A stretch of 64,000 nt of DNA from an uncultured Spirochaetales bacterium (GCA_964466335.1 CAYXSD010000002.1:33238-97237); one strand, 5' to 3'; numbered from the stretch's first letter, positions 46,115 through 64,000 are shown. Program-made: numbers and translations. The notes: a model not told the origin generated them from the letters alone.

Positions 46115-46115
46115 C

Positions 46116-51124: not shown

Positions 51125-51149
51125 GAGTTGTTCGAATAAAAAATCTGGA

Positions 51150-51716: not shown

Positions 51717-51855
51717 AATGCTTCCTCTGTTTTTTGTCTCTGTTCCTTATGTGAGGGCTGTCCCCGTTAAGATGGAGAGAAATTGTATTCTGTCCTTATC
51801 CGATCGTAAAGTAAGAATAATCGGTACCCGGGATCAACCAATAATGCCTGCCGTG

Positions 51856-54546
51856 TTAGGCTTTTTCGACCTTCACTGCACAGACCTTGAACTCCGGTAT
51901 CTTCGCAATCGGGTCCAAGGCGTCATTGGTGAGGATGTTCGCGGCAGCCTCCTTGAAGTGGAACGCCATAAAGACGGAGCCCGGTCTCGATCGCTTTGTT
52001 ACCACCGCCCGGGCGGTAACGGTACCGCGGCGGGAGGAGATTCGTGCGTTTTCCCCATCTGATATTGCCAAGGCTTCCGCGTCGACGGGGTGAATTTCTA
52101 CAAACCCGTCGGGCCTTACTTCATCCAGTCCCTCTGACCTTCTTGACATAGTACCGGTGTGGAAGTGATAGAGGATTCTCCCTGTGGTGAGAGCATAGGG
52201 ATACTCCTCGTCGGGAAGTTCCGCCGGATCGATGAAGTCCACAGCACTAAACAGCCCCTTCCCTCTGGCAAAAGCGTCCTTATGGAGGTAGGGAGTGCCC
52301 GGGTGGTCCTTTGTGGGGCAGGGCCACTGGAGGCCCATCCTTTCAATCCGTTTGTGTGTTATTCCGCCGTAGATCGGCATAACCGAGTTAATTTCCTCCA
52401 TGATGTGACTGGTACTGTCGTAGCGCATAGGATACCCCATTCTGCTGCTCACATCGCAGAGAATTTCCCAGTCCAGGCGTGCTTCTCCCGGGGCGGGCCG
52501 AATCTCCCGAAGGAGTTGGACCCTTCGTTCAGTGTTGGTAAAGGTTCCGTCCTTTTCGGCAAAACTCGCGGCGGGGAGTACTACATCAGCATACTCAGCT
52601 GTATCAGAGAGAAAGATATCCTGAACAACAATGAACTCCATTGCCTCCAGGTCCTTCTTGACCCTGTTTATGTTGGGATCGCTTAGGAAGGGGTTTTCAC
52701 CCATGATATACATACCTCGTATGGAGCCGTCCTCTGCTCCATGAAGCATCTCTACCACCGTCAATCCCAGATCGGGCGAGAGCGAAGTCTTCCAGGCCTC
52801 CTCGAATTTCTTTTGAAGCATTTCGTCCGTGACCTTCTGGTATCCCGGATACACATTGGGAAGGGCCCCTAAGTCGCAGGCCCCCTGAACGTTGTTCTGG
52901 CCCCTTAAAGGATTCACCCCGGTGTGTTTTTTCCCAATATTCCCGGTGAGCATCGCTAAGTTAGCCAGACTCAAGACATTGTCCGTGCCCGTGGTGTGTT
53001 GGGTAATCCCCATGCTGTAAACGATAGAGGCGGTCCCGGCGGTCGCGTACATCCTAGCCGCTTTTACAATGTCCTCCGCCGGTACACCGCTAATCTCCGA
53101 GGCACGTTTCGGTTCGTACTTCAGAACAACTTCGCGGAACTGTTCATAGTTTTCCGTCCTCTCGGCGATAAACTCCTCATCCGCCAATCCCTCGTTGATG
53201 ATAACATTCATGATGCCGTTAAAAAGGGCAACATCAGTTCCCGATTTATGCCTCAACCAAAGGTCGGCGAAAGGGACCAGCCCGATCCGTCTGGGGTCCG
53301 CTACTATGAGGTTCCCCCCGTTTTTCTCCACTGCTGCTTTAATGTCCAAGGCAATAATGGGATGGGCCTCGGTAGTGTTGGACCCTGTAACCAAAATACA
53401 GTCGGCGTTCCTCAGTTCCGCCATGGAGTTGGTCATTGCGCCGGAGCCGAAGGCCCTGGCGAGACCGGTAACGGTGGAAGAGTGGCAGAGTCTGGCGCAG
53501 TGGTCCACATTGTTCGTGCCGATACAGGCGCGGATGAATTTCTGAAAAATGTAGTTTTCTTCGTTGGTGCACTTCGCGCTGGAAAGTCCGCCAATGGCGT
53601 TGGGGCCGTATTTTTCCTTGATCTTGGTAAGATTTTCCGCCGTGTAGCTTAAAGCCTCTTCCCAGGATGTTTCCTCGAAGGATCCGTTTCGTTTTATCAG
53701 GGGCTTCGTTAACCGTTCCGGATGATCGATGAATTCGGTACCGAATTTACCCTTCACACAGAGGTTCCCGTTATTGACAGTGTTTTTGTCCGGGGTGGTA
53801 ACCTTAACCAGTTTGTTCTCTTTGGTGTGCATCTCCAGGGTACAGCCGCAACCGCAGTAGGGGCAGATCGTTTTTTCGCTTGTAAGTTCCCACTCTCTCC
53901 CCTTACCGATACGGTTTTTCTCAATAAGCGCACCAACGGGGCAAACGCTTATACAACGTCCGCAGGAAACACAGGTGGTATCTTGGAGTTTTCGGTCGAA
54001 AGCAGTGGCAATGGTAGCGGGAAATCCCCGGGCTCCGATGTTTATAGCCCGATCGAATTGGACTTCATTGCAGACATAAACGCAGCGACCGCAGAGGATA
54101 CACTTGTCGTAATCCCGGACAATAAAGGGATCATCATCTCTGATACCCCTTTCATTTCGTTCACCCTCGAAGGAGGGGCGGGTAATACCGAATTCGTAGG
54201 CGTACTTTTCCAGGAGACAGGTACCGCTTTTTTCACAGGTAATGCAGTCCACCTTGTGGTCCGAGAGGATCAACTCCAGGTTGAAGCGTCTCGCGTTACG
54301 GACGCGTTCCGTATCTGTATGTACCACCATTCCCTCGGCGGCCGCGTGAGAACAGGATGCGGCGAGGGACCTCATTCCTTCTACCTCTACCACACAAAGG
54401 CGGCAGGAGCTCATGGGGGGGAGGTCTTCACCGTAACAGAGGTGGGGTATTTCCACACCGGCCTTTTTAGCTGCCCAGTAGAGGGTCACTCCATTCTGTA
54501 CTGAAATTTTCTTTCCGTCTATTGTTAATGTAATATTGCTGCTCAT
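51856..54546 (-). CDS. fdhA: Molybdopterin-containing formate dehydrogenase alpha subunit (FdsA/FdhA type, NuoG-like N-terminus fused to a MopB catalytic domain), Cys-type
   Basis: N-terminal plant-type [2Fe-2S] motif. A His-Cys3 [4Fe-4S] motif (HKVDCITCEKSGTC), two CxxCxxCxxxCP ferredoxin motifs and the MopB cluster CPYCGCGC follow. CARLCHSST aligns to the FdhF RVUHGPS active site with Cys in place of Sec. There is no in-frame TGA. Confidence 0.6.
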   Translation of the reverse strand: MSSNITLTIDGKKISVQNGVTLYWAAKKAGVEIPHLCYGEDLPPMSSCRLCVVEVEGMRSLAASCSHAAAEGMVVHTDTERVRNARRFNLELILSDHKVDCITCEKSGTCLLEKYAYEFGITRPSFEGERNERGIRDDDPFIVRDYDKCILCGRCVYVCNEVQFDRAINIGARGFPATIATAFDRKLQDTTCVSCGRCISVCPVGALIEKNRIGKGREWELTSEKTICPYCGCGCTLEMHTKENKLVKVTTPDKNTVNNGNLCVKGKFGTEFIDHPERLTKPLIKRNGSFEETSWEEALSYTAENLTKIKEKYGPNAIGGLSSAKCTNEENYIFQKFIRACIGTNNVDHCARLCHSSTVTGLARAFGSGAMTNSMAELRNADCILVTGSNTTEAHPIIALDIKAAVEKNGGNLIVADPRRIGLVPFADLWLRHKSGTDVALFNGIMNVIINEGLADEEFIAERTENYEQFREVVLKYEPKRASEISGVPAEDIVKAARMYATAGTASIVYSMGITQHTTGTDNVLSLANLAMLTGNIGKKHTGVNPLRGQNNVQGACDLGALPNVYPGYQKVTDEMLQKKFEEAWKTSLSPDLGLTVVEMLHGAEDGSIRGMYIMGENPFLSDPNINRVKKDLEAMEFIVVQDIFLSDTAEYADVVLPAASFAEKDGTFTNTERRVQLLREIRPAPGEARLDWEILCDVSSRMGYPMRYDSTSHIMEEINSVMPIYGGITHKRIERMGLQWPCPTKDHPGTPYLHKDAFARGKGLFSAVDFIDPAELPDEEYPYALTTGRILYHFHTGTMSRRSEGLDEVRPDGFVEIHPVDAEALAISDGENARISSRRGTVTARAVVTKRSRPGSVFMAFHFKEAAANILTNDALDPIAKIPEFKVCAVKVEKA

Positions 54547-54572
54547 GGTAACTTCCTTTTAACCTACTAGGA

Positions 54573-56366
54573 TCATGAAACTTTAATGGCATCGAAGCGG
54601 CATGTGCTTAGACACATTCCACACTTAATACACTTATCCTGATCAATGACATGGACCTGCTTCGCCTCCCCGCTGATTGCGTCGACGGGACAGGCCTTAA
54701 AACAGGCATGACATCCGGTACAGTTCTCTTCAACTACGGTGTACTGGATGAGGTTTTTACAGACCCCCGCGGGACAGCGTTTTTCTTTGATATGCGCGTC
54801 ATACTCATGACGGAAATACTTCAATGTGGTGAGCACAGGATTTGGGGCGGTCTGCCCAAGGGCACAGAGGGCGGAGTCCTTAATAGCGTAGGCGGCGTTT
54901 TCCAGGATCTCGATGTCTTTTTCCGTTCCCCGTCCTTCGCAGATTGCCGTTAAGGTTTCCAGCATGCGTTTGGTACCGATCCTGCAGGGGACACATTTTC
55001 CGCAGGACTCCTCCTGGGTAAAGGAAAGAAAGTAACGGGCCACCTCTACCATGCATGTGGTTTCGTCCATAACGATCATTCCGCCTGAGCCCATAATACA
55101 ACCGGCTTTTATAAGCGACTCGAAATCTACGGTGATGTCCAAAAGAGATTCGGGAATACAGCCCCCGGAGGGCCCCCCGGTCTGGACAGCCTTAAATTTT
55201 TTGCCGTTAGGAATACCGCCGCCAATGTCGTAGATAATCTCCTTCAAGGTTATTCCCATGGGGACCTCTACCAAACCGGTATTGTTGACTTTTCCCACTA
55301 GTGAAAAAACTTTGGTGCCTTTACTGGTTTCTGTTCCGATGGATGAGAACATCTCAGCTCCGTGGTGAATGATTCGCGGAACATTGGCGAAGGTTTCTAC
55401 ATTATTGATATTAGTGGGTTTTCCCATATAACCGGCTTGGGCGGGGTAGGGCGGTTTTACCCGCGGCTGGGGCAGTCGGCCTTCCAGGGAGTTAATAAGG
55501 GAGGTTTCCTCTCCGCACACGAAAGCCCCCGCTCCGCGATGGACAGAGAGATCAAAGTTGAAACCGCTTCCGAGGATGTCCTCTCCTAAGAGACCGTAAT
55601 CCCTCGCCTGGTCAATGGCTAAAAGGACCCTCTTCAATGCCAGGGGATATTCGTTTCTAATATAGATAAATCCCTCATGAGCACCAATAGCCCTGGCCCC
55701 GATAATCATTCCTTCTAAGACCGCATGGGGATCGGATTCCACGATGGACCGGTCCATAAAGGCACCGGGGTCCCCCTCGTCGGCGTTACAAATAATATAC
55801 TTCTCTTCGCCTGGCTGGTCTTTACAGATCTTCCACTTTCTTCCAGTGGGAAACCCGGCCCCGCCCCGGCCTCGGAGGCCCGAGTTAAGTATTTCCTCTA
55901 CTATATCATCCGGAGTCATCTGGGTAAGTGCTTTTGCCAGGGCTTTGTAGCCCTCGCGGCCTATGTACTCGTCGATACTTTCAGGGTCGACAATCCCCCG
56001 GTTTGCCAGGGCGATAAGGCGCTGTTTCTTGAAGAAACCGATATCGCTCATTTTGGGGATCGGGGCTTCCTCCTTGGAAGGAGTGTACATGAGTTTTGGA
56101 ACAGGCCTCCCTTTTAGGAAATGTTCTTCCACCAAATAGGGGATGACCTCCTCAGTGAGGAGTTGATAGAAAATTCCATCCGGCTGGACTACCACAATAG
56201 GACCGTTGGCGCAGAAACCGTTACAGCCGGTAGTAACCACTTGGATTTCATTTTCCAATTTATGCTTTTTTAGTTCTTTTTCCAGGGTCTCTTTGATCTC
56301 AAAGGCGCCGTTGGAAACACAACCGGTACCAGTGCAGACCATTAGGTTCATTCTATAACGTGCCAT
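54573..56366 (-). CDS. NuoF-like NAD(P)H-binding flavoprotein subunit (HydB/HndC/FdhB type) with an N-terminal [2Fe-2S] and C-terminal 2x[4Fe-4S]
   Basis: GRGGAGFPTGRKW supplies the FMN/NADH motifs and ESCGKCVPCRIG the [4Fe-4S]. The N-terminal thioredoxin-like Cys motif is MVCTGTGC...GCNGFC. The C-terminus carries CTGCHACFKACP and CIKCGMCLSTC. Confidence 0.8.
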   Translation of the reverse strand: MARYRMNLMVCTGTGCVSNGAFEIKETLEKELKKHKLENEIQVVTTGCNGFCANGPIVVVQPDGIFYQLLTEEVIPYLVEEHFLKGRPVPKLMYTPSKEEAPIPKMSDIGFFKKQRLIALANRGIVDPESIDEYIGREGYKALAKALTQMTPDDIVEEILNSGLRGRGGAGFPTGRKWKICKDQPGEEKYIICNADEGDPGAFMDRSIVESDPHAVLEGMIIGARAIGAHEGFIYIRNEYPLALKRVLLAIDQARDYGLLGEDILGSGFNFDLSVHRGAGAFVCGEETSLINSLEGRLPQPRVKPPYPAQAGYMGKPTNINNVETFANVPRIIHHGAEMFSSIGTETSKGTKVFSLVGKVNNTGLVEVPMGITLKEIIYDIGGGIPNGKKFKAVQTGGPSGGCIPESLLDITVDFESLIKAGCIMGSGGMIVMDETTCMVEVARYFLSFTQEESCGKCVPCRIGTKRMLETLTAICEGRGTEKDIEILENAAYAIKDSALCALGQTAPNPVLTTLKYFRHEYDAHIKEKRCPAGVCKNLIQYTVVEENCTGCHACFKACPVDAISGEAKQVHVIDQDKCIKCGMCLSTCRFDAIKVS

Positions 56367-56746
56367 TACGATATCCTTTCGCTTCCGATTGCCAGCGCGT
56401 AGTCTTCAACGATTTCTCCGCCCAATACATGTCCGGAGAAGATTTTCTTTACCTTATCGCTGTTTAAATCGATGTATTTTACCGGGGCGGAACCTTGAAT
56501 TTCAATAGTTGCCATAGGTTCTTTGCTGCAAAGCCCGGCACATCCGGAAGTGGTAAGAATAATGTCCTTGGCGTCCACATTCTCGATTTCATTCATAAAG
56601 GTGGTAAGGATTTCCCTCGCTCCCGAGGCAATGCCGCAGGTCCCCATGTGGACTGTAATCTTTACTCTTCCAGCTCCCTCGCGAAGCTGGGTGGTCGATC
56701 TCATATTCTGGCTTATTTTGTCCAGGTCTTCCGGTTTTAGCTTCAT
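56366..56746 (-). CDS. Small HndB/HydD-like thioredoxin-fold ferredoxin-like subunit
   Basis: 126 aa, translationally coupled (ATGA overlap) to the nuoF-like gene. Only three Cys are present (TCGIASG, SGCAGLC). The assignment rests on size and position. Confidence 0.45.
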   Translation of the reverse strand: MKLKPEDLDKISQNMRSTTQLREGAGRVKITVHMGTCGIASGAREILTTFMNEIENVDAKDIILTTSGCAGLCSKEPMATIEIQGSAPVKYIDLNSDKVKKIFSGHVLGGEIVEDYALAIGSERIS

Positions 56747-56750
56747 ACCA

Positions 56751-57194
56751 TTACTCCTTTTCCTCTTTATTGGTGTCCCTTGTATTCCTATATCTATAGA
56801 TAAACGAAATCTCCGGATGTGTGAACTCCATTACCCGGATTGTTTCGGCTAAATCCCCCATCGGTTTGCGGTCCGGGTGGCTCCACTTGAAAGTCGCTAT
56901 GAGGCGGGTCCCGCCACCTGTTTTGGATTCTACAACAAGTTTGCCTTCGGCGTCACGTGCCGATTGGGCCAATAGGGGGACCCCCAACCCGATTCGCTTG
57001 TTTTCCTTGGAGCTAAAGAAGGGATCGGTTACATTTTTCATTGTGGTCTCGTCCATACCTTCACCGTCGTCTATTATCTCCAATTTGAGGATGTCCGTTT
57101 CCTGGTCCTCTGTAACATCGATGGTGATGTTCTCCGCCCCGGCCCGGATCGAATTATCCACAATGTCCAGAATATGCAATGATATGTCCTCCAT
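56751..57194 (-). CDS. Stand-alone GHKL (histidine-kinase-like) ATPase domain protein
   Basis: 147 aa with HATPase_c N-, G1- and G2-box-like motifs (LDIVDNSIRAG, IIDDGEGMD, GLGVPL). There is no HisKA or DHp domain. Confidence 0.65.
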   Translation of the reverse strand: MEDISLHILDIVDNSIRAGAENITIDVTEDQETDILKLEIIDDGEGMDETTMKNVTDPFFSSKENKRIGLGVPLLAQSARDAEGKLVVESKTGGGTRLIATFKWSHPDRKPMGDLAETIRVMEFTHPEISFIYRYRNTRDTNKEEKE

Positions 57195-57202
57195 ACCTCT
57201 CC

Positions 57203-57949
57203 CTAAAACTGAATTGATGAAAGGATTCTCCTTCCTTCTTGTTCTTTCACCGCTAATTGAAGTTCTCGGACCGTTGGGGTTTTCAGGAGGAACTCCGTTT
57301 TTGTCGTTCCGATGTCTCTTGGCTCATGGGCATCGGAGAAGGTGACAAAGGGGAAGCCCAGCCCCTTAAACTGGAAGGGGGAATGGTTATAGTTTCTCGA
57401 AAGTTCCAAGGCGTCCAAGGCCGTGTCCTCCGGGATAATACCCAACTGGCTTATGATTCCGTAGGCCTCCCTGTCAATATGGGATGCAATAGCGATTCCG
57501 CCGAATTCGTGAATTTTGGTAACGATTGTTTCAAGTTCTAAATCTGTTGCTCCAATAAGAAGATGTTCGTTCAATCCCGTTATGTAATCCTCATGGTCTA
57601 CGATGTACTGAGGCCCGAAAATGTCAGGATTGTTATCGCCGGGAAGATGAGAATAAATAATCCTCTGCATTTCTTCCAAGCCTTCTGCATGATCGAAATC
57701 AAAGATCCCGAGGAGATGTATTTCAGACTGAGTGGTTATCTCCATTCCACCTAGCACGGTCAGGGACGTTCCCTCCGCCGCCCTCCGTACTGCCTGCCAG
57801 TTCTCCGAGGCATTGTGGTCGCAGATGGCAATGGCCTGAAGTCCAGCTTTCAGAGCAGCGGCTACAATAGTGGTGGGGACACTTTTAGAGGCGCCGCAGG
57901 GGGAAAGGCAGGTGTGAATGTGCAAGTCCATGGAGAACCTCTTAAGCAT
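57203..57949 (-). CDS. PHP-domain phosphoesterase
   Basis: MDLHIHTCLSPCG...AICDHN is the PHP metal-binding His motif. The start is set at M(LKRF) at 57949. The ORF-table start at 57997 overlaps the upstream gene by 56 nt. Confidence 0.6.
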   Translation of the reverse strand: MLKRFSMDLHIHTCLSPCGASKSVPTTIVAAALKAGLQAIAICDHNASENWQAVRRAAEGTSLTVLGGMEITTQSEIHLLGIFDFDHAEGLEEMQRIIYSHLPGDNNPDIFGPQYIVDHEDYITGLNEHLLIGATDLELETIVTKIHEFGGIAIASHIDREAYGIISQLGIIPEDTALDALELSRNYNHSPFQFKGLGFPFVTFSDAHEPRDIGTTKTEFLLKTPTVRELQLAVKEQEGRRILSSIQF

Positions 57950-58292
57950 CCTTCTGTCCGGGGAGCCCGGCTTTGTAGAGCCTTCCTGCCATCTCAAAGG
58001 CCGGGAGCCGGCTTACCAGTAGGGGCATCTTTTCCGATTTTGCCTTTTCCAGGGTCGCCTCTTCCGGCCTTCTGCCTCCAATAAGAACGATCCCGCTGAG
58101 TTCCTTCATTAGGGCTACAGCGACAATATTAATATGGATCTGCAGAGTAATCCAAAGATCGTCTTTTTGGGCGTTGCCTATGACGTCGCTTAAAAGATCG
58201 CTGGCGTATCCGCATCGCACTTCCCGATCGAGATCGGATTCACCGGACAGTACTTCCAGATCGAATTGTTCCACGATATCACTCAGTTTCAT
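57942..58292 (-). CDS. DRTGG-domain protein
   Basis: 116 aa. It resembles the DRTGG domain seen with CBS domains and phosphotransacetylase N-termini (LLSDVIGN...IVLIGGRRP...LLVSRL). It overlaps the CBS/GHKL gene by 4 nt. Confidence 0.5.
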   Translation of the reverse strand: MKLSDIVEQFDLEVLSGESDLDREVRCGYASDLLSDVIGNAQKDDLWITLQIHINIVAVALMKELSGIVLIGGRRPEEATLEKAKSEKMPLLVSRLPAFEMAGRLYKAGLPGQKDA

Positions 58293-59209
58293 GGTCCCTC
58301 CAGGGGAATTGTGCTCCTTAGGGTGGTCCCCTCTCCTACCATAGAGGTAATGGAGAATTCTTCGGAGTTTTTCTTGATGTTTGGCAAACCCATTCCTGCT
58401 CCGAACCCCAATTCCCTAATCCAGTCCGGTGCAGTGGAGTATCCCGGCATCATTACCTTTTCTATATCCTCAATACCGGGGCCCTTGTCGGTTATTTCTA
58501 TCAGAATCTTTTCCTTGTCGAGCTTTGCTTTAATTTTTCCTCCTCCCCCGTAGAGTATACAGTTCATCTCCGCCTCGTAAAACACTATGGACGCTCGAGT
58601 TACAATGTCGGGATGGATATTCAGATAGGAGAGATTTTTGCGGAATTTACTGGAAATTTCTCCTCCCACTTCGATCTTTCCCCCGGGTACGGAGTAAGAG
58701 AAGGAGAGTTCTGTGTGGTCCGAGACTACTTCATGAAAGAAGTGGAATTTGCTGAAATCTTCCATTTCTTTCTGATAGAAATCGATATCCAAGGCCTTTA
58801 ATAGGCAGATAATAACATCGAATTTGGTAATAACCCCAATAAGCAACCCGGTTTCTCGTTCTATTACCGGAAATTCATAGAACCGGTACTGTTCGAAATG
58901 TCTGATGGCTTCTACCAGGGGTTCATCGTCGAAGAGGGTCACCACATCCTTTGACATCCGGTGGGTCACCTCCACTTCTTCCTTCCCGTTCTGAAGCCAG
59001 TTAATGTAGTCTTCTACACTGATGATCCCTATGAGGTGTTTATCCTCAATCACCGGTGCGGCGGTGATCTTTTGGCTCCGCAGTATAGACCGGACCTCGC
59101 TCATTTTGGTGTCCTTGGAAATGGTGCAAACATCCAGCTCCACAGCGTCCCGTAATTTTAATTCGTAAAACAATTCCTGGACCTTGTGGATATGCTGTAG
59201 ACGCTTCAT
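58289..59209 (-). CDS. CBS-pair plus GHKL ATPase domain protein
   Basis: Two CBS-like motifs in the N-terminal half (ITAAPVIEDKHLIGIISVEDY, EFPVIERETGLLIGVITKFD). A C-terminal HATPase_c follows (ITDKGPGIED...GFGAGMGLPN...GEGTTL). Confidence 0.65.
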   Translation of the reverse strand: MKRLQHIHKVQELFYELKLRDAVELDVCTISKDTKMSEVRSILRSQKITAAPVIEDKHLIGIISVEDYINWLQNGKEEVEVTHRMSKDVVTLFDDEPLVEAIRHFEQYRFYEFPVIERETGLLIGVITKFDVIICLLKALDIDFYQKEMEDFSKFHFFHEVVSDHTELSFSYSVPGGKIEVGGEISSKFRKNLSYLNIHPDIVTRASIVFYEAEMNCILYGGGGKIKAKLDKEKILIEITDKGPGIEDIEKVMMPGYSTAPDWIRELGFGAGMGLPNIKKNSEEFSITSMVGEGTTLRSTIPLEGP

Positions 59210-59592
59210 GGAGTGCTGCTATAGTCCTTATTTCCGGTACAACCGACCATGCCGGCGCAGTAGAGCCTTCCACAGGCATCGAAAAGAGAGTAATCCGTTC
59301 TTATAAGGGGGACCTGGTTTTTCGTTGCCAATTCCATTGTTTCTTTGGGCGGGACCTTCCCGAAGACAAAACAGACAGCCGCAATTTCTACCATCTCCGC
59401 GGTCCTAATTGTTTGCGGATTGGTCAGTCCTGTAAGAAGGAGGGATTTTCGTTTGCTACTGGAGAGTATATCACTCATTAAATCGGAGGCATTAACGGAG
59501 GAAATAGGATGGGTAAGCCAGTTGTTGTCTATTAGTACCTCGGCGTCTAAAATCTCAAGGATGTTTTCCCAACTAAAGGACCTCTGCTGCAT
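59206..59592 (-). CDS. DRTGG-domain protein (second copy)
   Basis: 128 aa and similar to the 57942..58292 product (LMSDILSS...LLLTGLTNPQ...PLIRTDY). It overlaps the downstream gene by 4 nt. Confidence 0.5.
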   Translation of the reverse strand: MQQRSFSWENILEILDAEVLIDNNWLTHPISSVNASDLMSDILSSSKRKSLLLTGLTNPQTIRTAEMVEIAAVCFVFGKVPPKETMELATKNQVPLIRTDYSLFDACGRLYCAGMVGCTGNKDYSSTP

Positions 59593-59598
59593 AGGCTG

Positions 59599-60051
59599 TT
59601 AATCCTTATACTGTTTGAGGAGTCTTGAGACCTTTTTGGGATCGAGTTTTCCATGATACTCCCCGTCTATTACGGCCAGCGGCCCCAGGGCGCAGGCGCC
59701 CACGCAGTTGACTGTTTCCAGGGTAAATTTCCCGTCCTCTGTTGTCTCTCCCGCTTTAATTCCCAGGTTCCGTTCAATTTCTTCCACTACCTGAGCGGCC
59801 CCCCGAACGTGACAGGCCGTACCTACGCAGACAGCACAGTAGTGTTCTCCCATAGGTTCTAATCTCAGGGAAGCATAAAAAGTACAGAGGCTGTAGAGCT
59901 TGCTTAGAGGGACCTTCGTTTCCTCGGAGACTGTTTCGAGTTTGTCCTCCGGGATATATCCGTATTCCGAGGACATGTCCTGAAGAAGACCAATAAGCGA
60001 TGTTTTTCCAGATGTATAACCCTCTATAATTGTGTCAAGTGTGTCCGCCAT
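59599..60051 (-). CDS. NuoE-like thioredoxin-fold [2Fe-2S] subunit (HydC/HoxE/FdhG type)
   Basis: The Cys pattern is CAVCVGTAC...C(x4)C in VNCVGACALGP. A GGAGGA RBS lies 9 nt upstream of the ATG. It is the first gene of the operon. Confidence 0.75.
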   Translation of the reverse strand: MADTLDTIIEGYTSGKTSLIGLLQDMSSEYGYIPEDKLETVSEETKVPLSKLYSLCTFYASLRLEPMGEHYCAVCVGTACHVRGAAQVVEEIERNLGIKAGETTEDGKFTLETVNCVGACALGPLAVIDGEYHGKLDPKKVSRLLKQYKD

Positions 60052-60102
60052 TCTGCCTTATCCTCCATATGTAGTGATTAGCCTAAGGGCTAGACTCCAA
60101 TT

Positions 60103-60157
60103 TGTCAAGTTTCATTTTCTTTTCAGTCTCTTTCAAAATTAACCAATTTTGAAAGAG
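60103..60157 (-). promoter_or_regulatory. Putative promoter and upstream palindrome of the formate dehydrogenase operon
   Basis: On the minus strand there is a TTGACA (60103..60108) with a weak -10 (TAGGCT) 17 nt downstream. A perfect 13-bp inverted repeat, CTCTTTCAAAATT-N4-AATTTTGAAAGAG, spans 60128..60157 and is centred near -62. Confidence 0.35.
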
Positions 60158-60178
60158 GCTGATCCGCAAAGATAATAT

Positions 60179-61444
60179 TTATTTTTTTACCACCGGTTTT
60201 AAGTAGGCGCTCCAGTAACTCATTCCAACGAATAGTCCTCCTCCAATGATATTGCCTAGGGTCACGGGTATAAGATTGGCCGCTATGAAACTTCCCCAGT
60301 TTAATGCCCCGGCATCGTAGGCCGCCGGTGCGGCAACACCACCTAGGGTCTTAAGGATAATTCCCATGGGGATGAAGTACATATTGGCAATGCTGTGTTC
60401 AAAACCAATGGCTACGAAGGCCATAACAGGGAAGATCATAGCAAAGATCTTTCCAACCACCTGCCTTGAGGCAAGTGCCATCCACACGGCAAGGCAGACC
60501 AACCAGTTACATCCGATGGCCCGCGTGAGGGCTTCCACAAAGGAGAGAGATACCTTTCCGTAGGCAATATTCATAGCGGAGGCAGCTATGGCGTTTCCCC
60601 CGGTTTCCCAGAGTCCTGAAAAGAAGTAGAGCATGACGATAAATATCGACCCTATAAAGTTGGCCACATACACCACGCCCCAACGGGCTGCCATCTTTCC
60701 CAAAGTGATTTCTCCGGTCATGACACTGGAAATCATGAGGTTGTTTCCAGTAAAGAGTTCCGCTCCCGCAATGACCACGAGAATTAGTCCTAAACTGAAG
60801 ACGCTTCCACTCATGAACTTGGTAAATCCTGTCCCGAAATGGGAAGCCATGTCGAAGGTCACTGTGGTTGCCAGTACCCCCGCGAAGGCAATATAAGCCC
60901 CGGCAAGGACGGCAAGTACGAAAACGGACATCCAAGGGGAGGTAGTTTTACCGACTCCCACTTTTTGGGCTACCGTTTCGGCGATGGTTTTAGGAGAGTT
61001 GTCCTCCAGAGAGGGGGTGGGAAAGGAGACGGAACCGATCATGGATTTGGCCCGGTCTAGTTCTTTTTTCTCGTTTTCTATCTTCTTCTTTTGGGCCTTT
61101 TGTACCGCCTGGGTAATCTCCACCGGTGAAAAGGGCTTAGCAATGAAGTCTAAGGCGCCCCGCTTCATAGCCTCTGTCGCCCGGTCCACCGAGGGATAGC
61201 CGCTTATCATTACCACTGTTGATTCGGGAGAGCGGGTTTCAATTTCGGTAACCACATCCATGCCGTTAAATTCGGGCATCTGCCAATCGCAGAGAATAAC
61301 ATCGTAGAACGACTCCCCAATGAGTTTTAAGCCCTCCGTTGGGCTAGTGGTCGTAACGACTTCAAAGCCTTCGGCAGTAAAAATTTTGGAACATGAATCC
61401 AGCACTACCTGTTCGTCGTCGATAATCAACATCTTTTCTTTCAT
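60179..61444 (-). CDS. Response-regulator receiver domain fused to a formate/nitrite transporter (FocA/NirC family) channel
   Basis: The canonical REC motifs at residues 1-120 are DD, the acceptor Asp in ILCDWQMP, S in VMISGY and K in AKPF. Residues 170-421 carry FNT signatures (GAELFTGNN, GFEHSIANM, NLIPVTLGNIIGGGLFVG) and six hydrophobic helices. Confidence 0.8.
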   Translation of the reverse strand: MKEKMLIIDDEQVVLDSCSKIFTAEGFEVVTTTSPTEGLKLIGESFYDVILCDWQMPEFNGMDVVTEIETRSPESTVVMISGYPSVDRATEAMKRGALDFIAKPFSPVEITQAVQKAQKKKIENEKKELDRAKSMIGSVSFPTPSLEDNSPKTIAETVAQKVGVGKTTSPWMSVFVLAVLAGAYIAFAGVLATTVTFDMASHFGTGFTKFMSGSVFSLGLILVVIAGAELFTGNNLMISSVMTGEITLGKMAARWGVVYVANFIGSIFIVMLYFFSGLWETGGNAIAASAMNIAYGKVSLSFVEALTRAIGCNWLVCLAVWMALASRQVVGKIFAMIFPVMAFVAIGFEHSIANMYFIPMGIILKTLGGVAAPAAYDAGALNWGSFIAANLIPVTLGNIIGGGLFVGMSYWSAYLKPVVKK

Positions 61445-61540
61445 TTTTTGCTCCTCTTTGCTATCCCTGTAGTGTATGGTACAACCCTGCTTTTTCGGGC
61501 ATGGGTTATAAACTGATGTCCGTTTTGTCTTATTGCAGTG

Positions 61541-62164
61541 TTACCAAATTTCGGCGCTTAACTTCTGATTAAACCAGCGGCGCTGAACATCCGATAGAGG
61601 ACCTGTGTAACTTTCAATCCACTTCTGGTCCCCCGTTAGAAGGGCAAGCTTCTCTTGGGTGGTAAGATCATAGGGATCGAGGGCATCCACCTTTTTAGAG
61701 AATATTTCCTCTTCAAATATCGGGTCGGTGCCGAGCCGATCGAGGATGGAGAGGACTTCATCCTTATGTACCAGACCCTGCTTTTCCTGGGGTGTATCAG
61801 TTATTTTTGCTGTTGCCTTTTCAATTCTGGATAAAAGATCATCCGGGGAGAATGGTTTTTCTACGTAATCGGCGGCGCCCAACTTCATAGACTGCACTGC
61901 CGTATCAACGGAGGAGTACCCGGTAATAATTATGACCGGCAAGCCCGGCTTTTCCTTCTTAATTTCCCTAAGCACCTTCATACCACCGATTTCGGGCATA
62001 CGGATGTCCGAGAGCACCAAAGAGAATTCTTCCTTCAGCACCTGCTTAAGACCCTCCTTAGGGCTAAGAGAGGTGTGGACTTCGAAATCTCTCGATGTGA
62101 GGATCTTTTTTACACTGTCCAGAATAATCTGATCGTCATCTATTACCATTATTTTTCTAGCCAA
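61541..62164 (-). CDS. Response regulator with a receiver domain and an 85-aa C-terminal domain of unknown type
   Basis: The REC motifs are DDD, D in LSDIRMP, T in IITGY and K in EKPF. This REC is closely similar to that of the REC-FNT fusion. The C-terminal domain has no recognisable motif. Confidence 0.7.
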   Translation of the reverse strand: MARKIMVIDDDQIILDSVKKILTSRDFEVHTSLSPKEGLKQVLKEEFSLVLSDIRMPEIGGMKVLREIKKEKPGLPVIIITGYSSVDTAVQSMKLGAADYVEKPFSPDDLLSRIEKATAKITDTPQEKQGLVHKDEVLSILDRLGTDPIFEEEIFSKKVDALDPYDLTTQEKLALLTGDQKWIESYTGPLSDVQRRWFNQKLSAEIW

Positions 62165-62178
62165 GGATATATCCCTCC

Positions 62179-62556
62179 TTATGTATTTGTGTTTTCTTTG
62201 TGATTGTTAAGAATGTTATTGATAGCGTTTATTAGTTCTTCGGGAGTAAAGGGTTTTGGAATGTATTTCTCCGCTCCCGTGGACAAGCTGTGTCGAATGG
62301 TCTCTTCTGTGGAATAACCGCTTATTACCAATATGGGGATATGGGGAAAACGTTTCTTGCAGATAGAAATCAAATAGAGCCCGTCCTTTTCCGGCATTTT
62401 TATGTCCGCAATAATTAAACCTATTGAATGGTTCTCTAAGTTTTCCAGGGCCTCATCCACCGAGGAGGTGTAAAGGGATTCGAATTCAGTGTCCCGGAGG
62501 ATTCTCTTACAGCTTTCGATTACAATGGGATCATCATCGACAATAAGAATTTTCAT
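62179..62556 (-). CDS. Stand-alone receiver domain protein (CheY-like single-domain response regulator)
   Basis: 125 aa. The REC motifs are DDD, D in IADIKMP, S in ISGY and K in PKPF. Confidence 0.75.
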   Translation of the reverse strand: MKILIVDDDPIVIESCKRILRDTEFESLYTSSVDEALENLENHSIGLIIADIKMPEKDGLYLISICKKRFPHIPILVISGYSTEETIRHSLSTGAEKYIPKPFTPEELINAINNILNNHKENTNT

Positions 62557-64000
62557 GTAGTATCATCCTCCAAGGGCAGCCAGATGGTGAAGGTGCTTCC
62601 CTCTCCGACTTGACTCTTTACGTGAATGGATCCTCCGTGTCTTTCTATTATACCATAGGAAACGGACAAACCAAGGCCCGTACCTTTTCCAACTTCCTTG
62701 GTGGTAAAGAAAGGATCAAAGAGTTTTTTTAGATTTTCCTCCGGAATTCCGCATCCTGTATCGGCAATGGTTATTTCTATACCCCGCTTACTCTCCTTCT
62801 CGGTCGAAACGGCGATCCCGGTTCTTACATTAATATGCCCACCGTTGTCTACACTGTCTATTGCGTTAATGAGAACGTTGATTAGTACCGATTGAATTTG
62901 GTTTCTGTCCAGGGTTCGGGTGGGAAGGTTTTCTTTTAGATCGAAGCAGAGGATAGCCCCCTTCACCAGGGCCTGATTCTCGATAAGGGATATAGTGTCT
63001 CTAATAAGTTCGTTTATGTCCGTTTCCACTGGGGTAATTTCGGTTTGTCTTGAAAAGTCGAGTAACCCTTTTACAATATCCCGGACTCTCTCGGTAGCTT
63101 TGGAAATAGTCCGAAGGTCCTCCACAACATCTTCGGGAAGGTCTTCCCGTTTTAAAAGCATGTGGGTAAAGGTAAGCACTCCGGTTAAAGGGTTGTTTAT
63201 CTCGTGAGCTACCCCCGCTGCCAGTCTTCCCACACTGGCCTGCTTCTCCGACTGAAGAAGTTTTATTTCGCTTACCTCCCGCTGTCTGCGGTCCCTCTCC
63301 CGCAGGGAGGTTAGCATTTCCATAAAGGTCCGCTGGAGTATTCCAATTTCATCCTTGGAAATAGGGGCAATTTTGGGACTGAGGTCTCCCTCTGAAACCC
63401 GATGACTTGCCTCAATAAGCTGGTGCATAGGATGTAAGAGTTTTTTCCCCAAAAGAAAGGCGAAAGTTCCCGCTATGACCATTCCCGCCAGGGTTATAAG
63501 GAGGAAGAGTATGAAGGTGTTTTCCCGGATGTCTTGGTATTTCTCTTCGGTTATGCCGACATTGAGCATTCCCACACGCTTGTTGAAGATGTCGTATATA
63601 GGCTCATAGGCAGTGAGGAACCACCCGCTTACTACAAAAGCTCTTCCGCTCCAACGTTCACCCTGGAGAAGAACACTGTTTCGTACCTCCTTGGAGGCTC
63701 GCGTTCCGACTGCCCTGTGTCCTTCCCAGGCAAGGACATTGGTGGATATTCTGATGTCCTCTAAAAAGATGGTGGAATTTCCTACACTCTCTCCTCTATA
63801 GGTTTCTCCTCGGAAGACCGTCTCCTTCACCCTGTCTACTATAGAGTTGTCCTTATTAATAAGGACCCCGCCGTAGAGTATACCCACAAAAGTCTGGTCC
63901 TTGTAGAGAGGAACTGCAGAGGAGATGGTCATGCCCCTGGTTTCCCGGTCCTTATCGGAGGGCTCGGATCTTGGTGTATCTTTAACTTCTATGGCTGCTT
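62553..64000 (-). CDS. Membrane sensor histidine kinase, N-terminus beyond the window end, with extracytoplasmic sensor, TM, HAMP, HisKA and HATPase_c
   Basis: The HisKA H-box is [13 protein letters not shown]. The HATPase_c motifs include DTGCGIPEE and [12 protein letters not shown] helix and HAMP-like linker precede them, and the sensor region is Cache-like. The reading frame probably continues past 63932 to the window edge. Confidence 0.75.

What the first reader, a model, noticed from the sequence alone, without database searches (positions are those of the whole stretch)
56751..59592. Signalling-type module inside the NuoE/NuoF-formate dehydrogenase operon
Five genes lie between the nuoE-like and hndB/nuoF/fdhA genes. 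Four are joined by 4-nt overlaps, which implies stoichiometric co-translation. Two encode DRTGG-domain proteins, one a CBS-pair/GHKL-ATPase protein, one a PHP phosphoesterase, and one a stand-alone GHKL ATPase. The overlap with the PHP gene depends on which start codon is chosen. CBS pairs usually bind adenine nucleotides. GHKL domains without HisKA act as Ser/Thr kinases or ATP-dependent switches, as in anti-sigma-factor types. PHP domains are phosphoesterases. Similar small GHKL/DRTGG genes occur in NuoE/NuoF-type hydrogenase operons of thermophilic anaerobes, but their function has not been shown experimentally to my knowledge. Here they accompany a formate dehydrogenase rather than a hydrogenase. 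That argues for a generic, uncharacterised kinase/phosphatase module sensing nucleotide or energy state for NuoE/NuoF-type flavin enzymes, possibly controlling the enzyme post-translationally.
Basis: partly seen in the sequence, partly recalled or inferred. Interest (0 to 1): 0.75.

Follow-up and report, generated by a model that had tools for sequence, protein, structure and literature searches.

The report
Sensor cassette inside formate dehydrogenase operon
Five small genes inside an operon for an NADH/ferredoxin-linked formate dehydrogenase form a conserved, uncharacterised signalling cassette found in many bacterial phyla, and here a nucleotide-binding CBS sensor sits where related operons carry a hydrogen-sensing, hydrogenase-like domain.

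Summary
The five genes and their domains are real: DRTGG, CBS-pair plus SpoIIAB-like GHKL, DRTGG, PHP, and a stand-alone GHKL. They lie between nuoE and hndB-nuoF-fdhA. Only two junctions are 4-nt overlaps. The set is not a local oddity. Among 59 genome loci with enough flank, 51 carry all five genes, in more than ten phyla, almost always beside NuoE-HndB-NuoF. The catalytic partner is usually HdrA-like, sometimes a formate dehydrogenase, and rarely a hydrogenase.

The same cassette exists with a HydS-type "sensory" [FeFe]-hydrogenase domain in place of the CBS pair. That version sits mostly beside true bifurcating [FeFe]-hydrogenases. Natural fusions link the components in gene order: DRTGG1-GHKL1, GHKL1-HydS, HydS-DRTGG2 and PHP-GHKL2.

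I therefore read the window's module as the CBS (nucleotide-sensing) variant of an uncharacterised signal-transduction cassette serving Bfu-type electron-bifurcating enzymes. The "kinase/phosphatase" mechanism stays unproven, because the PHP protein resembles nucleotide and nucleic-acid phosphoesterases rather than protein phosphatases. No paper in the searchable library gives a function. I rate it a new variant of a known but uncharacterised kind, of moderately high interest.

The parts
59206..59592 (-). DRTGG1: 128-aa DRTGG-fold protein, paralogue of DRTGG2
   Evidence: Pfam DRTGG 23.0 bits and PucR 24.9 bits, both below cut-off. hhalign against the DRTGG2 family gives probability 100%, E 2.7e-57, 29% identity. 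Conserved motifs are DLMSDvL, llTGl.N, fVrGk.P and cGrLy. It is fused to GHKL1 in P0437, with 42% identity.
58289..59209 (-). CBS pair + SpoIIAB-like GHKL ATPase/kinase (GHKL1), 306 aa; the sensor-transmitter
   Evidence: Pfam CBS x2 70.4 bits, HATPase_c 35.5 bits. Invariant GHKL motifs are E212/N216, DxGPGI, GFGAGMG and GxGT. The CBS motifs GIISVED and GVITKFD are present. AF2 shows two domains joined by a flexible linker at 146-163. The GHKL half matches SpoIIAB with TM 0.75-0.81. ATGA overlaps at both ends.
57942..58292 (-). DRTGG2: 116-aa DRTGG-fold protein, the most conserved member (60-73% identity across phyla)
   Evidence: Pfam DRTGG 26.6 bits. AF2 pLDDT 95.2. Fold matches are AF1212 (2IOJ, TM 0.81), the CBS-PPase DRTGG domain (3L2B, 0.71) and the HPrK/P N-domain (1KO7). 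Residues invariant in both CBS- and HydS-type cassettes are D32 L33 L34 S35 V37 T49 Q51 H53 N55.
57203..57949 (-). PHP metal-dependent phosphoesterase, 248 aa (242 aa if it starts at 57931)
   Evidence: Pfam PHP 33.9 bits, PHP_C 23.2 bits. Invariant residues are D8 H10 H12, D44 H45 N46, E70, E76 H78, H157 D159 R160 and D206 A207 H208. Nearest solved relatives are 3E0F/3O0F, EndoQ, RNase AM (7UG9), TM0559 and Cv1693. It is fused to GHKL2 in 8 loci, mostly Planctomycetota.
56751..57194 (-). GHKL2: stand-alone 147-aa GHKL ATP-binding domain without a HisKA/DHp domain
   Evidence: Pfam HATPase_c 53.8 bits, HATPase_c_3 40.6 bits. Invariant residues are S5 L6 H7 D10 N14, D42/G44/G46, G69 L70 G71, G95, and a family-specific C-terminal D108 P111 G113. 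It holds the position of tte0891 in hydC-tte0891-hydD-hydB-hydA and in L085-L087.
59599..60051 (-). NuoE/HndA/BfuC-type [2Fe-2S] subunit
   Evidence: Pfam 2Fe-2S_thioredx 157.9 bits.
56366..56746 (-). HndB/BfuD-type small thioredoxin-like [2Fe-2S] protein
   Evidence: Pfam 2Fe-2S_thioredx 23.2 bits, just below cut-off. An orthologous gene is present beside the cassette in most loci.
54573..56366 (-). NuoF/HydB/BfuB-type FMN, NAD(H)-binding subunit with an N-terminal [2Fe-2S] domain and a C-terminal 2x[4Fe-4S]
   Evidence: Pfam. 852 bits over the full length to HydB of a structurally solved bifurcating hydrogenase (7Q4V_B), and strong matches to NiFe-HydB, NfnB and StnB-type chains.
51856..54546 (-). 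FdhA: BfuA-like N-terminal Fe-S domains fused to a Mo/W-bisPGD formate dehydrogenase catalytic domain (Cys type)
   Evidence: Pfam Molybdopterin 285.9 bits. NCBIfam TIGR01591 Fdh-alpha 894.5 bits against a 666 cut-off. The sequence HCARLCHSS contains no in-frame stop.
60179..64000 (-). Upstream two-component genes, possibly functionally linked: REC-FNT fusion (60179-61444), REC + unknown domain (61541-62164), REC (62179-62556), and a Cache-HAMP histidine kinase cut by the window end
   Evidence: Pfam. The kinase is 648 aa in the near-identical contig L081. REC and HK genes recur near the cassette in other loci.

Best explanation
The five genes are the CBS-sensor variant of a widespread five-protein signal-transduction cassette. 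Its order is DRTGG1, sensor+GHKL1, DRTGG2, PHP, GHKL2. It serves soluble NuoE/HndB/NuoF-based (Bfu-type, electron-bifurcating) redox enzymes, here a formate dehydrogenase.

Proposed working:
1. The CBS pair binds a cytoplasmic adenine nucleotide (AMP/ADP/ATP, a diadenosine polyphosphate, or a related ligand).
2. Together with the two DRTGG proteins it forms a split version of the CBS-DRTGG-CBS regulatory unit known from CBS-pyrophosphatases.
3. Ligand binding changes the ATP-dependent activity of the attached SpoIIAB-like GHKL1, either serine phosphorylation of a partner or ATP-dependent partner binding.
4. PHP, working with GHKL2, resets the state by hydrolysing a phospho-protein or the nucleotide signal.
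5. The output adjusts the activity or assembly of the shared NuoE/HndB/NuoF core rather than transcription.

Shown: the domain identities; conservation of catalytic and ligand-binding motifs; conserved gene order in many phyla; linkage to NuoE/HndB/NuoF; interchange of CBS with a HydS domain; and the gene fusions.

Inferred: the ligand, the chemistry (phosphotransfer versus ATP-driven clamp), the PHP substrate, and the target.
For: - Domains and motifs are confirmed. The folds are SpoIIAB-like for GHKL1 and DRTGG for DRTGG2.
- The cassette is complete in 51 of 59 adequately flanked genome loci from many phyla, next to NuoE-HndB-NuoF. Junctions are short or overlapping.
- The catalytic partner varies (HdrA-like, FDH, HydA) while the NuoE/HndB/NuoF genes stay constant.
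- A sister cassette has the same DRTGG1, DRTGG2, PHP and GHKL2 (35-44% identity, same order). It carries GHKL1 fused or adjacent to a HydS-like H-cluster protein instead of a CBS pair.
- Fusions occur in gene order: DRTGG1-GHKL1 (L089), GHKL1-HydS, HydS-DRTGG2 (L142), PHP-GHKL2.
- Sensor type tracks enzyme type. HydS cassettes have 13 HydA partners against 7 others. CBS cassettes have 2 HydA partners against 46 others (Fisher p = 2e-7).
- There is precedent for CBS plus DRTGG as an AMP/ATP/ApnA sensor in CBS-PPases (fold match to 3L2B).
- No DNA-binding domain or sigma factor lies within the cassette.
Against: - There is no biochemical evidence at all. No ligand, substrate or target has been tested.
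- GHKL1 scores far below the SpoIIAB family cut-off (49 against 135 bits). No STAS-type substrate is present.
- The nearest solved relatives of PHP act on nucleotides or nucleic acids, not on phospho-proteins.
- GHKL2 has an Asp at N-4 and a MutL-like 'ENSxxAGA' motif, which fits an ATPase clamp as well as a kinase.
- REC, HK or sigma-54 regulator genes sit near many cassettes, and Rex sits near the Firmicute-type one. A transcriptional output is therefore not excluded.
- Reduced sets exist, such as DRTGG1+CBS-GHKL alone beside a [NiFe] hydrogenase operon, or with an orphan NuoE.
- The locus samples are similarity-ranked and not phylogenetically independent, so the Fisher test overstates significance.
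Confidence: 0.5

Rival explanations
1. Same sensor cassette, but the output is transcriptional. GHKL1 would act like an anti-sigma or partner-switching kinase, or the cassette would feed into the neighbouring two-component, sigma-54 or Rex regulators. It would control expression of the operon rather than the enzyme itself.
For: - GHKL1 is closest to the anti-sigma factor SpoIIAB.
- HK and REC genes flank the cassette in the window and in many loci.
- A sigma-54 response regulator lies directly upstream in L082/L083, and Rex lies directly upstream in L085-L087 and L089.
- Genetics on PAS-HydS (hfsB) point to effects on adhE transcript levels.
Against: - The cassette has no sigma factor, STAS protein or DNA-binding domain.
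- None of the window's three REC proteins has a DNA-binding output.
- The five genes sit between structural genes with coupled junctions, which is unusual for low-abundance transcription regulators.
- The neighbouring regulators differ between lineages while the cassette and NuoE/HndB/NuoF stay constant.
Confidence: 0.2
2. There is no protein phosphorylation. PHP would be a nucleotide phosphodiesterase or phosphatase that degrades the small-molecule signal (for example pAp, ApnA or nanoRNA) bound by the CBS and DRTGG proteins. The two GHKL domains would be ATP-driven conformational clamps. On this reading the module is a second-messenger or alarmone receptor with a built-in signal terminator.
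For: - The best solved relatives of the PHP profile are the AMP-binding phosphoesterase 3E0F/3O0F, EndoQ, the 5'-3' exoribonuclease 7UG9 and the 3',5'-bisphosphonucleotidase 2YB1. NCBIfam hits agree.
- By secondary-structure position, the invariant DRTGG2 residues (S, D, T, Q, H, N, G, R) lie in loops after beta-strands 2-4, on the usual ligand-binding edge of a Rossmann-like sheet.
- GHKL2 has MutL-like N-terminal motifs.
- CBS-DRTGG units bind ApnA in CBS-PPases.
Against: - The similarity to nucleotide-acting PHP enzymes is confined mostly to the metal-binding N-terminal ~80 residues or to the C-terminal part.
- HydS-type cassettes keep PHP although their primary signal is presumably H2 or redox state, not a nucleotide.
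- GHKL1 keeps the catalytic Glu and Asn of a SpoIIAB-type kinase.
Confidence: 0.2
3. The cassette is an ATP-dependent assembly, maturation or repair system for the flavin/Fe-S core of Bfu enzymes. It would act as a GHKL chaperone-like ATPase plus a metallo-phosphoesterase, not as a regulator.
For: - It is embedded among structural genes.
- The GHKL superfamily includes Hsp90- and MutL-type ATPases, and GHKL2 matches HATPase_c_3.
- GHKL2 is adjacent to HndB in several arrangements.
Against: - The sensor slot is filled by classic input domains, either a CBS pair or a HydS domain.
- Purified and structurally solved Bfu enzymes closely related to this NuoF exist, and the papers I read mention no such factors. 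Whether their operons lack the cassette was not tested here.
- The sensor-less, CBS and HydS versions are interchangeable around the same enzymes.
Confidence: 0.07
4. The five genes are functionally unrelated neighbours, or decaying remnants.
For: None beyond the absence of experimental data.
Against: - Order and content are conserved in 51 of 59 loci across many phyla.
- Catalytic motifs are invariant.
- Four kinds of gene fusion link the components.
Confidence: 0.01

Closest known systems
[quoted passage not shown]
   Same: The same DRTGG1, GHKL1, DRTGG2, PHP and GHKL2 proteins (35-44% identity) occur in the same order next to NuoE-HndB-NuoF. The role is equally undetermined in the literature.
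   Different: The window has a CBS pair N-terminal to GHKL1 instead of a HydS H-cluster/Fe-S protein fused or adjacent to it. Its enzyme partner is a formate dehydrogenase rather than an [FeFe]-hydrogenase. That the Tam HydS operon has exactly this cassette is inferred from the paper's wording and from metagenomic loci. I did not check it on that genome.
PAS-HydS / HfsB system with Ser/Thr kinase and PP2C phosphatase (Ruminococcus albus, Thermoanaerobacterium saccharolyticum)
   Same: A regulatory module attached to bifurcating-hydrogenase metabolism and proposed to signal through an anti-sigma-type kinase. Genetic evidence for a regulatory effect exists.
   Different: The components differ: a PAS domain and a PP2C phosphatase, with no DRTGG, PHP or CBS. 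The HydDB class also differs (C3, phosphatase-linked).
SpoIIAB-SpoIIAA-SpoIIE / RsbW-RsbV-RsbU partner switching
   Same: GHKL1 has the SpoIIAB fold and catalytic motifs. A small conserved partner protein is encoded on each side and a phosphoesterase gene lies next to it.
   Different: The partners have the DRTGG fold, not STAS. The hydrolase is PHP, not PP2C. No sigma factor is present. The family-model score is well below cut-off.
Regulatory insert of CBS-pyrophosphatases (CBS-DRTGG-CBS)
   Same: The same two domain types occur together. The DRTGG2 model superposes on the CBS-PPase DRTGG domain (TM 0.71). That unit senses AMP/ADP/ATP and diadenosine polyphosphates.
   Different: Here the domains are separate, translationally coupled polypeptides. 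They are attached to a GHKL domain, not inserted in a pyrophosphatase.
[quoted passage not shown]
   Same: A small gene sits between the nuoE-like and hndB-like genes, at the position GHKL2 holds in the window and in L085-L087.
   Different: That paper calls Tte0891 only 'hypothetical protein'. Its identity as a GHKL protein is my recollection, not tested here. The four-gene DRTGG1 to PHP part is not described there.
Electron-bifurcating formate dehydrogenases of the Bfu family (e.g. Clostridium acidurici FdhF2-HylABC; 'Fdh-Bfu' class)
   Same: A NuoE/NuoF-type core plus an FDH catalytic subunit with BfuA-like N-terminal clusters.
   Different: This concerns the enzyme, not the cassette. The papers I could read describe no regulatory cassette for those enzymes.

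Membership tests
Pfam DRTGG (PF07085) | HMM score at or above the gathering threshold (25.2 bits) | tested here: met
   DRTGG2 scores 26.6 bits. DRTGG1 scores 23.0 bits, below the cut-off, but it is a full-length paralogue of DRTGG2 (hhalign probability 100%).
Pfam DRTGG (PF07085) | DRTGG fold | tested here: met
   The AF2 model of DRTGG2 (pLDDT 95) matches AF1212/2IOJ at TM 0.81 and the CBS-PPase DRTGG domain 3L2B at 0.71. DRTGG1 was not modelled.
CBS pair (Bateman module) | Two tandem CBS motifs carrying the ribose-binding G-h-h-S/T-x-x-D signature | tested here: met
   Pfam CBS, two stretches, 70.4 bits. GIISVED and GVITKFD have G61, D67, G125 and T128 invariant. The fold matches nucleotide-bound CBS pairs. 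Ligand binding itself was not tested.
GHKL (Bergerat-fold) ATPases | N-box Asn with an acidic residue at N-4, plus the G1 (DxGxG), G2 and G3 boxes | tested here: met
   GHKL1 has E212/N216, DxGPGI, GFGAGMG and GxGT invariant. GHKL2 has D10/N14, D42xG44xG46, G69-L-G71 and G95 invariant.
SpoIIAB/RsbW anti-sigma serine kinases | Family-model score above cut-off | tested here: not met
   TIGR01925 is the best NCBIfam hit for GHKL1 but scores 49.1 bits against a cut-off of 135.
SpoIIAB/RsbW anti-sigma serine kinases | A cognate STAS-domain antagonist/substrate, a PP2C phosphatase and a target sigma factor encoded nearby | tested here: not met
   None of these occurs in the operon. The flanking small proteins have the DRTGG fold and the hydrolase is PHP.
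Two-component sensor histidine kinases | A HisKA/DHp domain with a phospho-acceptor His next to the CA domain | tested here: not met
   GHKL2 is a CA-like domain only. An H-box-like 'SHxDRKP' segment follows it, but H106 is Asn in 2 of 26 relatives.
PHP metal-dependent phosphoesterases | HxH, DH(N), E, H, H and DxH metal ligands | tested here: met
   All are invariant in 22 cassette PHP proteins. Pfam PHP and PHP_C score above their cut-offs.
PHP-type protein phosphatases (CpsB/YwqE) | Sequence relationship to that subgroup | tested here: not met
   The profile search of the PDB returned 12 chains, all nucleotide, nucleic-acid or histidinol-phosphate enzymes. No CpsB/YwqE entry appeared at E <= 0.01. 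Activity on phospho-proteins cannot be tested here.
Bfu (HydABC-type) electron-bifurcating enzymes | A BfuB with an N-terminal [2Fe-2S] domain, the FMN/NADH site and a C-terminal 2x[4Fe-4S]; a BfuC; and BfuA-type N-terminal clusters on the catalytic subunit | tested here: met
   Pfam architecture. 852 bits, end to end, to HydB 7Q4V_B.
Bfu (HydABC-type) electron-bifurcating enzymes | Demonstrated coupled reduction of NAD+ and ferredoxin | not testable with these tools
   This needs enzyme assays.
HydS-type sensory-hydrogenase cassette | DRTGG1, GHKL1, DRTGG2, PHP and GHKL2 in this order next to NuoE/HndB/NuoF | tested here: met
HydS-type sensory-hydrogenase cassette | A HydS (divergent H-cluster domain plus Fe-S) sensor protein | tested here: not met
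   The window has a CBS pair in that slot and no Fe_hyd_lg_C domain anywhere in the operon.

The most novel reading that the evidence does not exclude
DRTGG-GHKL-DRTGG-PHP-GHKL is a previously undescribed, phylum-spanning signal-transduction system with a plug-in sensor: a HydS domain for H2, a CBS pair for adenylate or alarmone state, or none. It would gate electron-bifurcating Bfu enzymes post-translationally, through a new kind of partner switch in which DRTGG proteins replace STAS proteins and a PHP enzyme replaces PP2C. It would then be both the missing transduction pathway of 'sensory' [FeFe]-hydrogenases and a direct link between cellular energy charge and electron bifurcation.
Probability: 0.3. 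Interest if true: 0.85.

Novelty: new variant of a known kind. Interest (0 to 1): 0.62.

Why it matters
Bfu-type enzymes (bifurcating hydrogenases, formate dehydrogenases, Nfn/Stn transhydrogenases, HdrA-linked complexes) set the NADH/ferredoxin/H2/formate balance of anaerobes. How their activity is controlled is essentially unknown. Putative sensory [FeFe]-hydrogenases have been characterised spectroscopically, yet the literature asks openly how their signal is passed on.

The comparison made here does three things:
- It names a concrete, conserved set of four partner proteins for that job.
- It shows that the sensor is modular (HydS, CBS or none).
- It shows that the CBS version serves formate dehydrogenase and HdrA-type complexes in many uncultured phyla.

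This turns a vague annotation ('histidine kinase-like ATPase next to the hydrogenase') into testable hypotheses: which nucleotide binds, who phosphorylates or clamps whom, what PHP hydrolyses, and whether the NuoE/HndB/NuoF core is the target. It also matters for engineering H2, formate or ethanol production in anaerobes.

Tried and rejected
- Rfam and tRNA scans of the whole window found nothing.
- The promoter/terminator scan of 51000-64000 found no more sites than shuffled sequence (13 against 13.2 and 18 against 15.3). It says nothing about transcript structure.
- Idea: GHKL2 carries its own phospho-acceptor His in the conserved C-terminal 'SHxDRKPLGD', which resembles a HisKA H-box. Rejected as a strict requirement, because H106 is Asn in 2 of 26 relatives while D108, P111 and G113 are invariant.
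- Idea: the DRTGG proteins are STAS-like substrates of the SpoIIAB-like kinase by homology. Rejected, because the fold search gives DRTGG and HPrK N-domain folds, not STAS. A functional analogy remains possible.
- PDB hits 9ZNF and 9ZNI ('CBS domain-containing protein' in large complexes) looked promising, but they match the CBS part only.
- Literature searches for DRTGG with hydrogenase or formate dehydrogenase, for histidine kinase-like ATPase with bifurcating hydrogenase, and for CBS domain with bifurcating/NuoF found no functional study. The T. kivui genome paper does not mention such genes.
- No full-length relative of the REC-FNT fusion was found in the first 80 (genome) loci.
- An exact look-up of the window's FdhA, meant to identify the source organism, found nothing on record. 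Taxonomy remains inferred as probably Spirochaetota, from the best hits.
- My first H-cluster regular expressions under-called hydrogenases and were replaced by Pfam and BLAST classification.

Full report
**Observation**

The minus strand of 51.8-64 kb carries one tightly packed gene row. In order it holds:
- a Cache/HAMP histidine kinase, cut by the window end;
- three receiver proteins, one of them fused to a formate/nitrite transporter;
- NuoE (59599-60051);
- DRTGG1 (59206-59592);
- CBS-CBS-GHKL (58289-59209);
- DRTGG2 (57942-58292);
- PHP (57203-57949);
- a 147-aa stand-alone GHKL domain (56751-57194);
- HndB (56366-56746);
- NuoF (54573-56366);
- an 896-aa formate dehydrogenase alpha subunit with NuoG/HydA-type N-terminal clusters (51856-54546). 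NCBIfam TIGR01591 scores it at 894 bits against a cut-off of 666.

The NuoF protein aligns end to end with HydB of a solved bifurcating hydrogenase (852 bits). The enzyme is therefore a Bfu-type, HydABC-like formate dehydrogenase.

Only DRTGG1/CBS-GHKL and CBS-GHKL/DRTGG2 are ATGA overlaps. PHP either overlaps DRTGG2 by 8 nt (ATG 57949, MLKRFSMDLH) or follows it after 10 nt (ATG 57931). Homologues beginning M-x4-5-ADLH favour the first. The gene caller on a 98%-identical contig chose the second. The remaining junctions are gaps of 4-8 nt.

**Anatomy**

*CBS-GHKL.* It has two canonical CBS motifs (GIISVED, GVITKFD) and invariant Lys and Arg residues. A flexible linker follows (AF2 pLDDT below 50 at 146-163). 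The GHKL domain has invariant E212/N216, DxGPGI, GFGAGMG and GxGT. By sequence and by fold this GHKL half is nearest to the anti-sigma serine kinase SpoIIAB (TM 0.75-0.81). It scores well below that family's cut-off.

*DRTGG1 and DRTGG2.* They are full-length paralogues (hhalign probability 100%, 29% identity). DRTGG2 is the best-conserved protein of the set, at 60-73% identity across phyla. It models with pLDDT 95 as a DRTGG fold, closest to AF1212, the DRTGG domain of CBS-pyrophosphatase and the N-domain of HPr kinase. Its invariant residues (S31/D32/L33/S35/D36/V37, W47/T49/H53/N55, P76) lie, by secondary-structure position, in the loops that follow strands 2-4. D32, L33, L34, S35, V37, T49, Q51, H53 and N55 also persist in the HydS-type cassettes.

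*PHP.* It keeps every PHP metal ligand. Its nearest solved relatives are the AMP-binding phosphoesterase 3E0F/3O0F, endonuclease Q, RNase AM, TM0559 and a 3',5'-bisphosphonucleotidase. None of them is a PHP-type protein phosphatase.

*GHKL2.* It has the ATP-binding boxes of a histidine-kinase CA domain (DPFFTT, GLGL) but no DHp domain. It also has a MutL-like N-terminus (SLHILDxxENSxxAGA, with an invariant Asp at N-4) and a family-specific conserved tail.

**Conservation and context**

The best 80 come from Spirochaetota, Planctomycetota, Chloroflexota, Cloacimonadota, Acidobacteriota, Gemmatimonadota, Desulfobacterota, Bacteroidota, Bipolaricaulota, Aerophobetes, TA06, Delongbacteria and others.

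Of 59 loci with at least 600 nt upstream and 2.5 kb downstream, 51 contain all five genes in the same order, nearly always next to NuoE-HndB-NuoF. Junctions are short or overlapping.

Four arrangements occur:
- NuoE-HndB-NuoF-[cassette]-BfuA, the commonest;
- [cassette]-NuoE-HndB-NuoF-BfuA;
- NuoE-[cassette]-HndB-NuoF-FdhA (the window, L060, L081);
- DRTGG1-CBSGHKL-DRTGG2-PHP-NuoE-GHKL2-HndB-NuoF (Chloroflexota).

PHP and GHKL2 are one polypeptide in eight loci, mostly Planctomycetota.

The catalytic partner varies. Of 45 partner proteins, 27 have an HdrA-like FAD domain, six (plus the window) a molybdopterin FDH domain, and two an H-cluster. The formate dehydrogenase pairing in the window is therefore one of several, and not the commonest.

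Reduced sets also exist. DRTGG1+CBS-GHKL stand in front of a sulfhydrogenase-like [NiFe] operon in L042. An orphan NuoE-DRTGG1-CBS-GHKL trio occurs in L001.

**The sister cassette**

An exhaustive profile search of 1.84 billion representative proteins found 279 clusters at E <= 1e-30. Besides full-length CBS-GHKL proteins, the GHKL half alone matched two further groups at 150-186 bits: about 140-aa stand-alone proteins, and many 510-555-aa proteins. The latter consist of this GHKL domain, two [4Fe-4S] motifs, a divergent Fe_hyd_lg_C domain and a C-terminal PF04060 Fe-S motif. That is a HydS-like 'sensory' hydrogenase.

Their neighbourhoods reproduce the cassette:
- L082/L083: sigma-54 regulator, a 113-aa protein, GHKL-HydS, a 115-aa protein, PHP, GHKL, NuoE, HndB, NuoF. 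The two small proteins are DRTGG1 (35% identity) and DRTGG2 (40%). The GHKL domain is 44% and GHKL2 35% identical to the window's proteins.
- L085-L087: Rex, DRTGG1-GHKL1 fusion, HydS, DRTGG2, PHP, NuoE, GHKL2, HndB, NuoF, HydA. The second half of this row has the published order hydC-tte0891-hydD-hydB-hydA.
- L088: separate DRTGG1, GHKL1, HydS and DRTGG2 genes joined by 4-nt overlaps.

A metagenome scan seeded with a HydS-type DRTGG2 returned 80 further loci. It added a HydS-DRTGG2 fusion (L142). It also added a sensor-less version, with a GHKL1 of about 141-155 aa and no CBS or HydS, which lies next to FDH-type Bfu genes in L109 and L139.

The fusions DRTGG1-GHKL1, GHKL1-HydS, HydS-DRTGG2 and PHP-GHKL2 follow the gene order. 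This argues for one physical complex.

Over both samples, HydS-type cassettes have an [FeFe] HydA partner in 13 of 20 classifiable loci. CBS-type cassettes have one in 2 of 48 (Fisher p = 2e-7). The loci are not phylogenetically independent, and 18 of the 40 CBS loci with an HdrA-like partner also carry a [NiFe] large-subunit gene. The contrast is therefore with [FeFe]-hydrogenases, not with hydrogen metabolism in general.

**How it most likely works**

*What is shown.* A conserved five-protein set has intact ATP-binding, metal-binding and CBS motifs. It is tied to the NuoE/HndB/NuoF core whatever the catalytic subunit. The position next to GHKL1 is filled interchangeably by a CBS pair, a HydS protein, or nothing. 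An exchangeable input domain on a constant transmitter is the hallmark of a signalling system.

*What I infer.* The steps below are inference in decreasing order of confidence.
- The CBS pair binds an adenine nucleotide. The CBS-DRTGG-CBS insert of CBS-pyrophosphatases senses AMP/ADP/ATP, and its response to diadenosine polyphosphates appears to depend on the DRTGG domain.
- The DRTGG proteins are the direct partners of GHKL1.
- GHKL1 either phosphorylates a partner serine or binds it in an ATP-dependent way, as SpoIIAB does. The invariant Ser35 at a helix N-terminus is the obvious candidate for phosphorylation.
- PHP-GHKL2 resets the system.
- The output is the enzyme core. The cassette has no DNA-binding or sigma component, it sits among structural genes, and GHKL2 is often adjacent to HndB.

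The last two steps are the weakest. PHP looks more like a nucleotide or nucleic-acid esterase. GHKL2 may be an ATPase clamp. Regulators (HK/REC, sigma-54 activator, Rex) are frequent neighbours.

The rivals are therefore a transcriptional output, a nucleotide-signal receptor with a built-in hydrolase and no protein phosphorylation, and a maturation system, which is much less likely. Chance juxtaposition is excluded.

**Comparison with what is known**

- Land et al. note a histidine kinase-like ATPase beside the PAS-less Tam HydS and ask how the signal is transduced.
- A Hydrogenedentota survey notes HATPase_c domains on group C1 enzymes.
- Kelly et al. carried the 'hypothetical' tte0891 along in a synthetic operon without assigning it a role.
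- The Bfu family survey mentions regulatory genes in its figures only.
- The PAS-HydS/HfsB system, with its kinase and PP2C, has genetic support for a regulatory role, but its parts are different.
- No paper in the searchable library couples DRTGG, PHP or CBS proteins to hydrogenases, formate dehydrogenases or bifurcating enzymes.

The window's module is thus a member of an already glimpsed but uncharacterised kind. It is a new variant of that kind: a CBS sensor in place of HydS, and a formate dehydrogenase as the client. It is not a member of the SpoIIAB, two-component or CpsB families, because their defining features were tested and not met. It may still work like a partner switch.

**Limits**

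- ORFs in related loci were called mechanically and labelled by BLAST against the window's proteins.
- Locus samples are ranked by similarity to the query.
- Only single chains could be modelled.
- The library covers open-access papers only.
- That TTE0891 is a GHKL protein, and that Tam HydS lies in exactly this cassette, rest on my memory and on the papers' wording.

Noticed in passing
window 60179-61444 (-): A receiver (REC) domain is fused to a formate/nitrite transporter (421 aa), directly upstream of the FDH operon. This suggests a phosphorylation-gated formate channel. Its 90%-identity cluster has only 4 members, and the first 80 (genome) loci hold no full-length relative.
   Followed up: partly
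window 61541-62164 (-) and 62179-62556 (-): There are two further receiver proteins. One carries an ~85-aa C-terminal domain with no Pfam match. None of the three REC proteins has a DNA-binding output, so the Cache-HAMP kinase (62553 to the window end, 648 aa in L081) may signal to proteins rather than to promoters.
   Followed up: no
window 51150-51716 (-): GTP cyclohydrolase I (folE) lies 139 nt downstream of fdhA on the same strand and may be co-transcribed.
   Followed up: no
window 49133-51124 (+) and 35769-36677 (+): Long ORFs of 663 aa and 302 aa have no Pfam match at E <= 1e-5.
   Followed up: no
L009 3402-4280 and 9284-12535; L002 4369-7425; L029 13362-16885: Related loci carry unusual Bfu subunit fusions: NuoE with an N-terminal HdrA-like FAD fragment, a ~1080-aa BfuA-HdrA fusion, a ~1020-aa NuoF-GltD fusion, and a ~1175-1200-aa GltD-FDH fusion.
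   Followed up: partly
L042 7566-13812; L001 7163-8930: A reduced set, DRTGG1 + CBS-GHKL only, stands in front of a sulfhydrogenase-like [NiFe]-hydrogenase operon (L042). It also occurs as an orphan NuoE-DRTGG1-CBS-GHKL trio in a Spirochaetota genome (L001).
   Followed up: partly
L109, L139 (also L092, L131): A sensor-less version of the cassette has a GHKL1 of ~141-155 aa with neither CBS nor HydS. In two cases it lies next to FDH-type Bfu genes.
   Followed up: partly
L142 (ORF of 543 aa upstream of PHP): An apparent HydS-DRTGG2 fusion was seen once. An assembly or frameshift artefact was not excluded.
   Followed up: no
CBS-type loci with an HdrA-like BfuA (e.g. L151, L159, L163): Eighteen of 40 such loci also carry a [NiFe]-hydrogenase large-subunit gene on the same strand. 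This hints at an Mvh-like hydrogenase working with a NuoEF-HdrA complex.
   Followed up: no
window 38617-41193 (+), 36812-38131 (+), 44240-48173 (+): The chromosomal context is ordinary: CheA, an MCP, topoisomerase IV/gyrase-like subunits and an M16 peptidase. The 64 kb contain no tRNA genes and no Rfam matches.
   Followed up: yes
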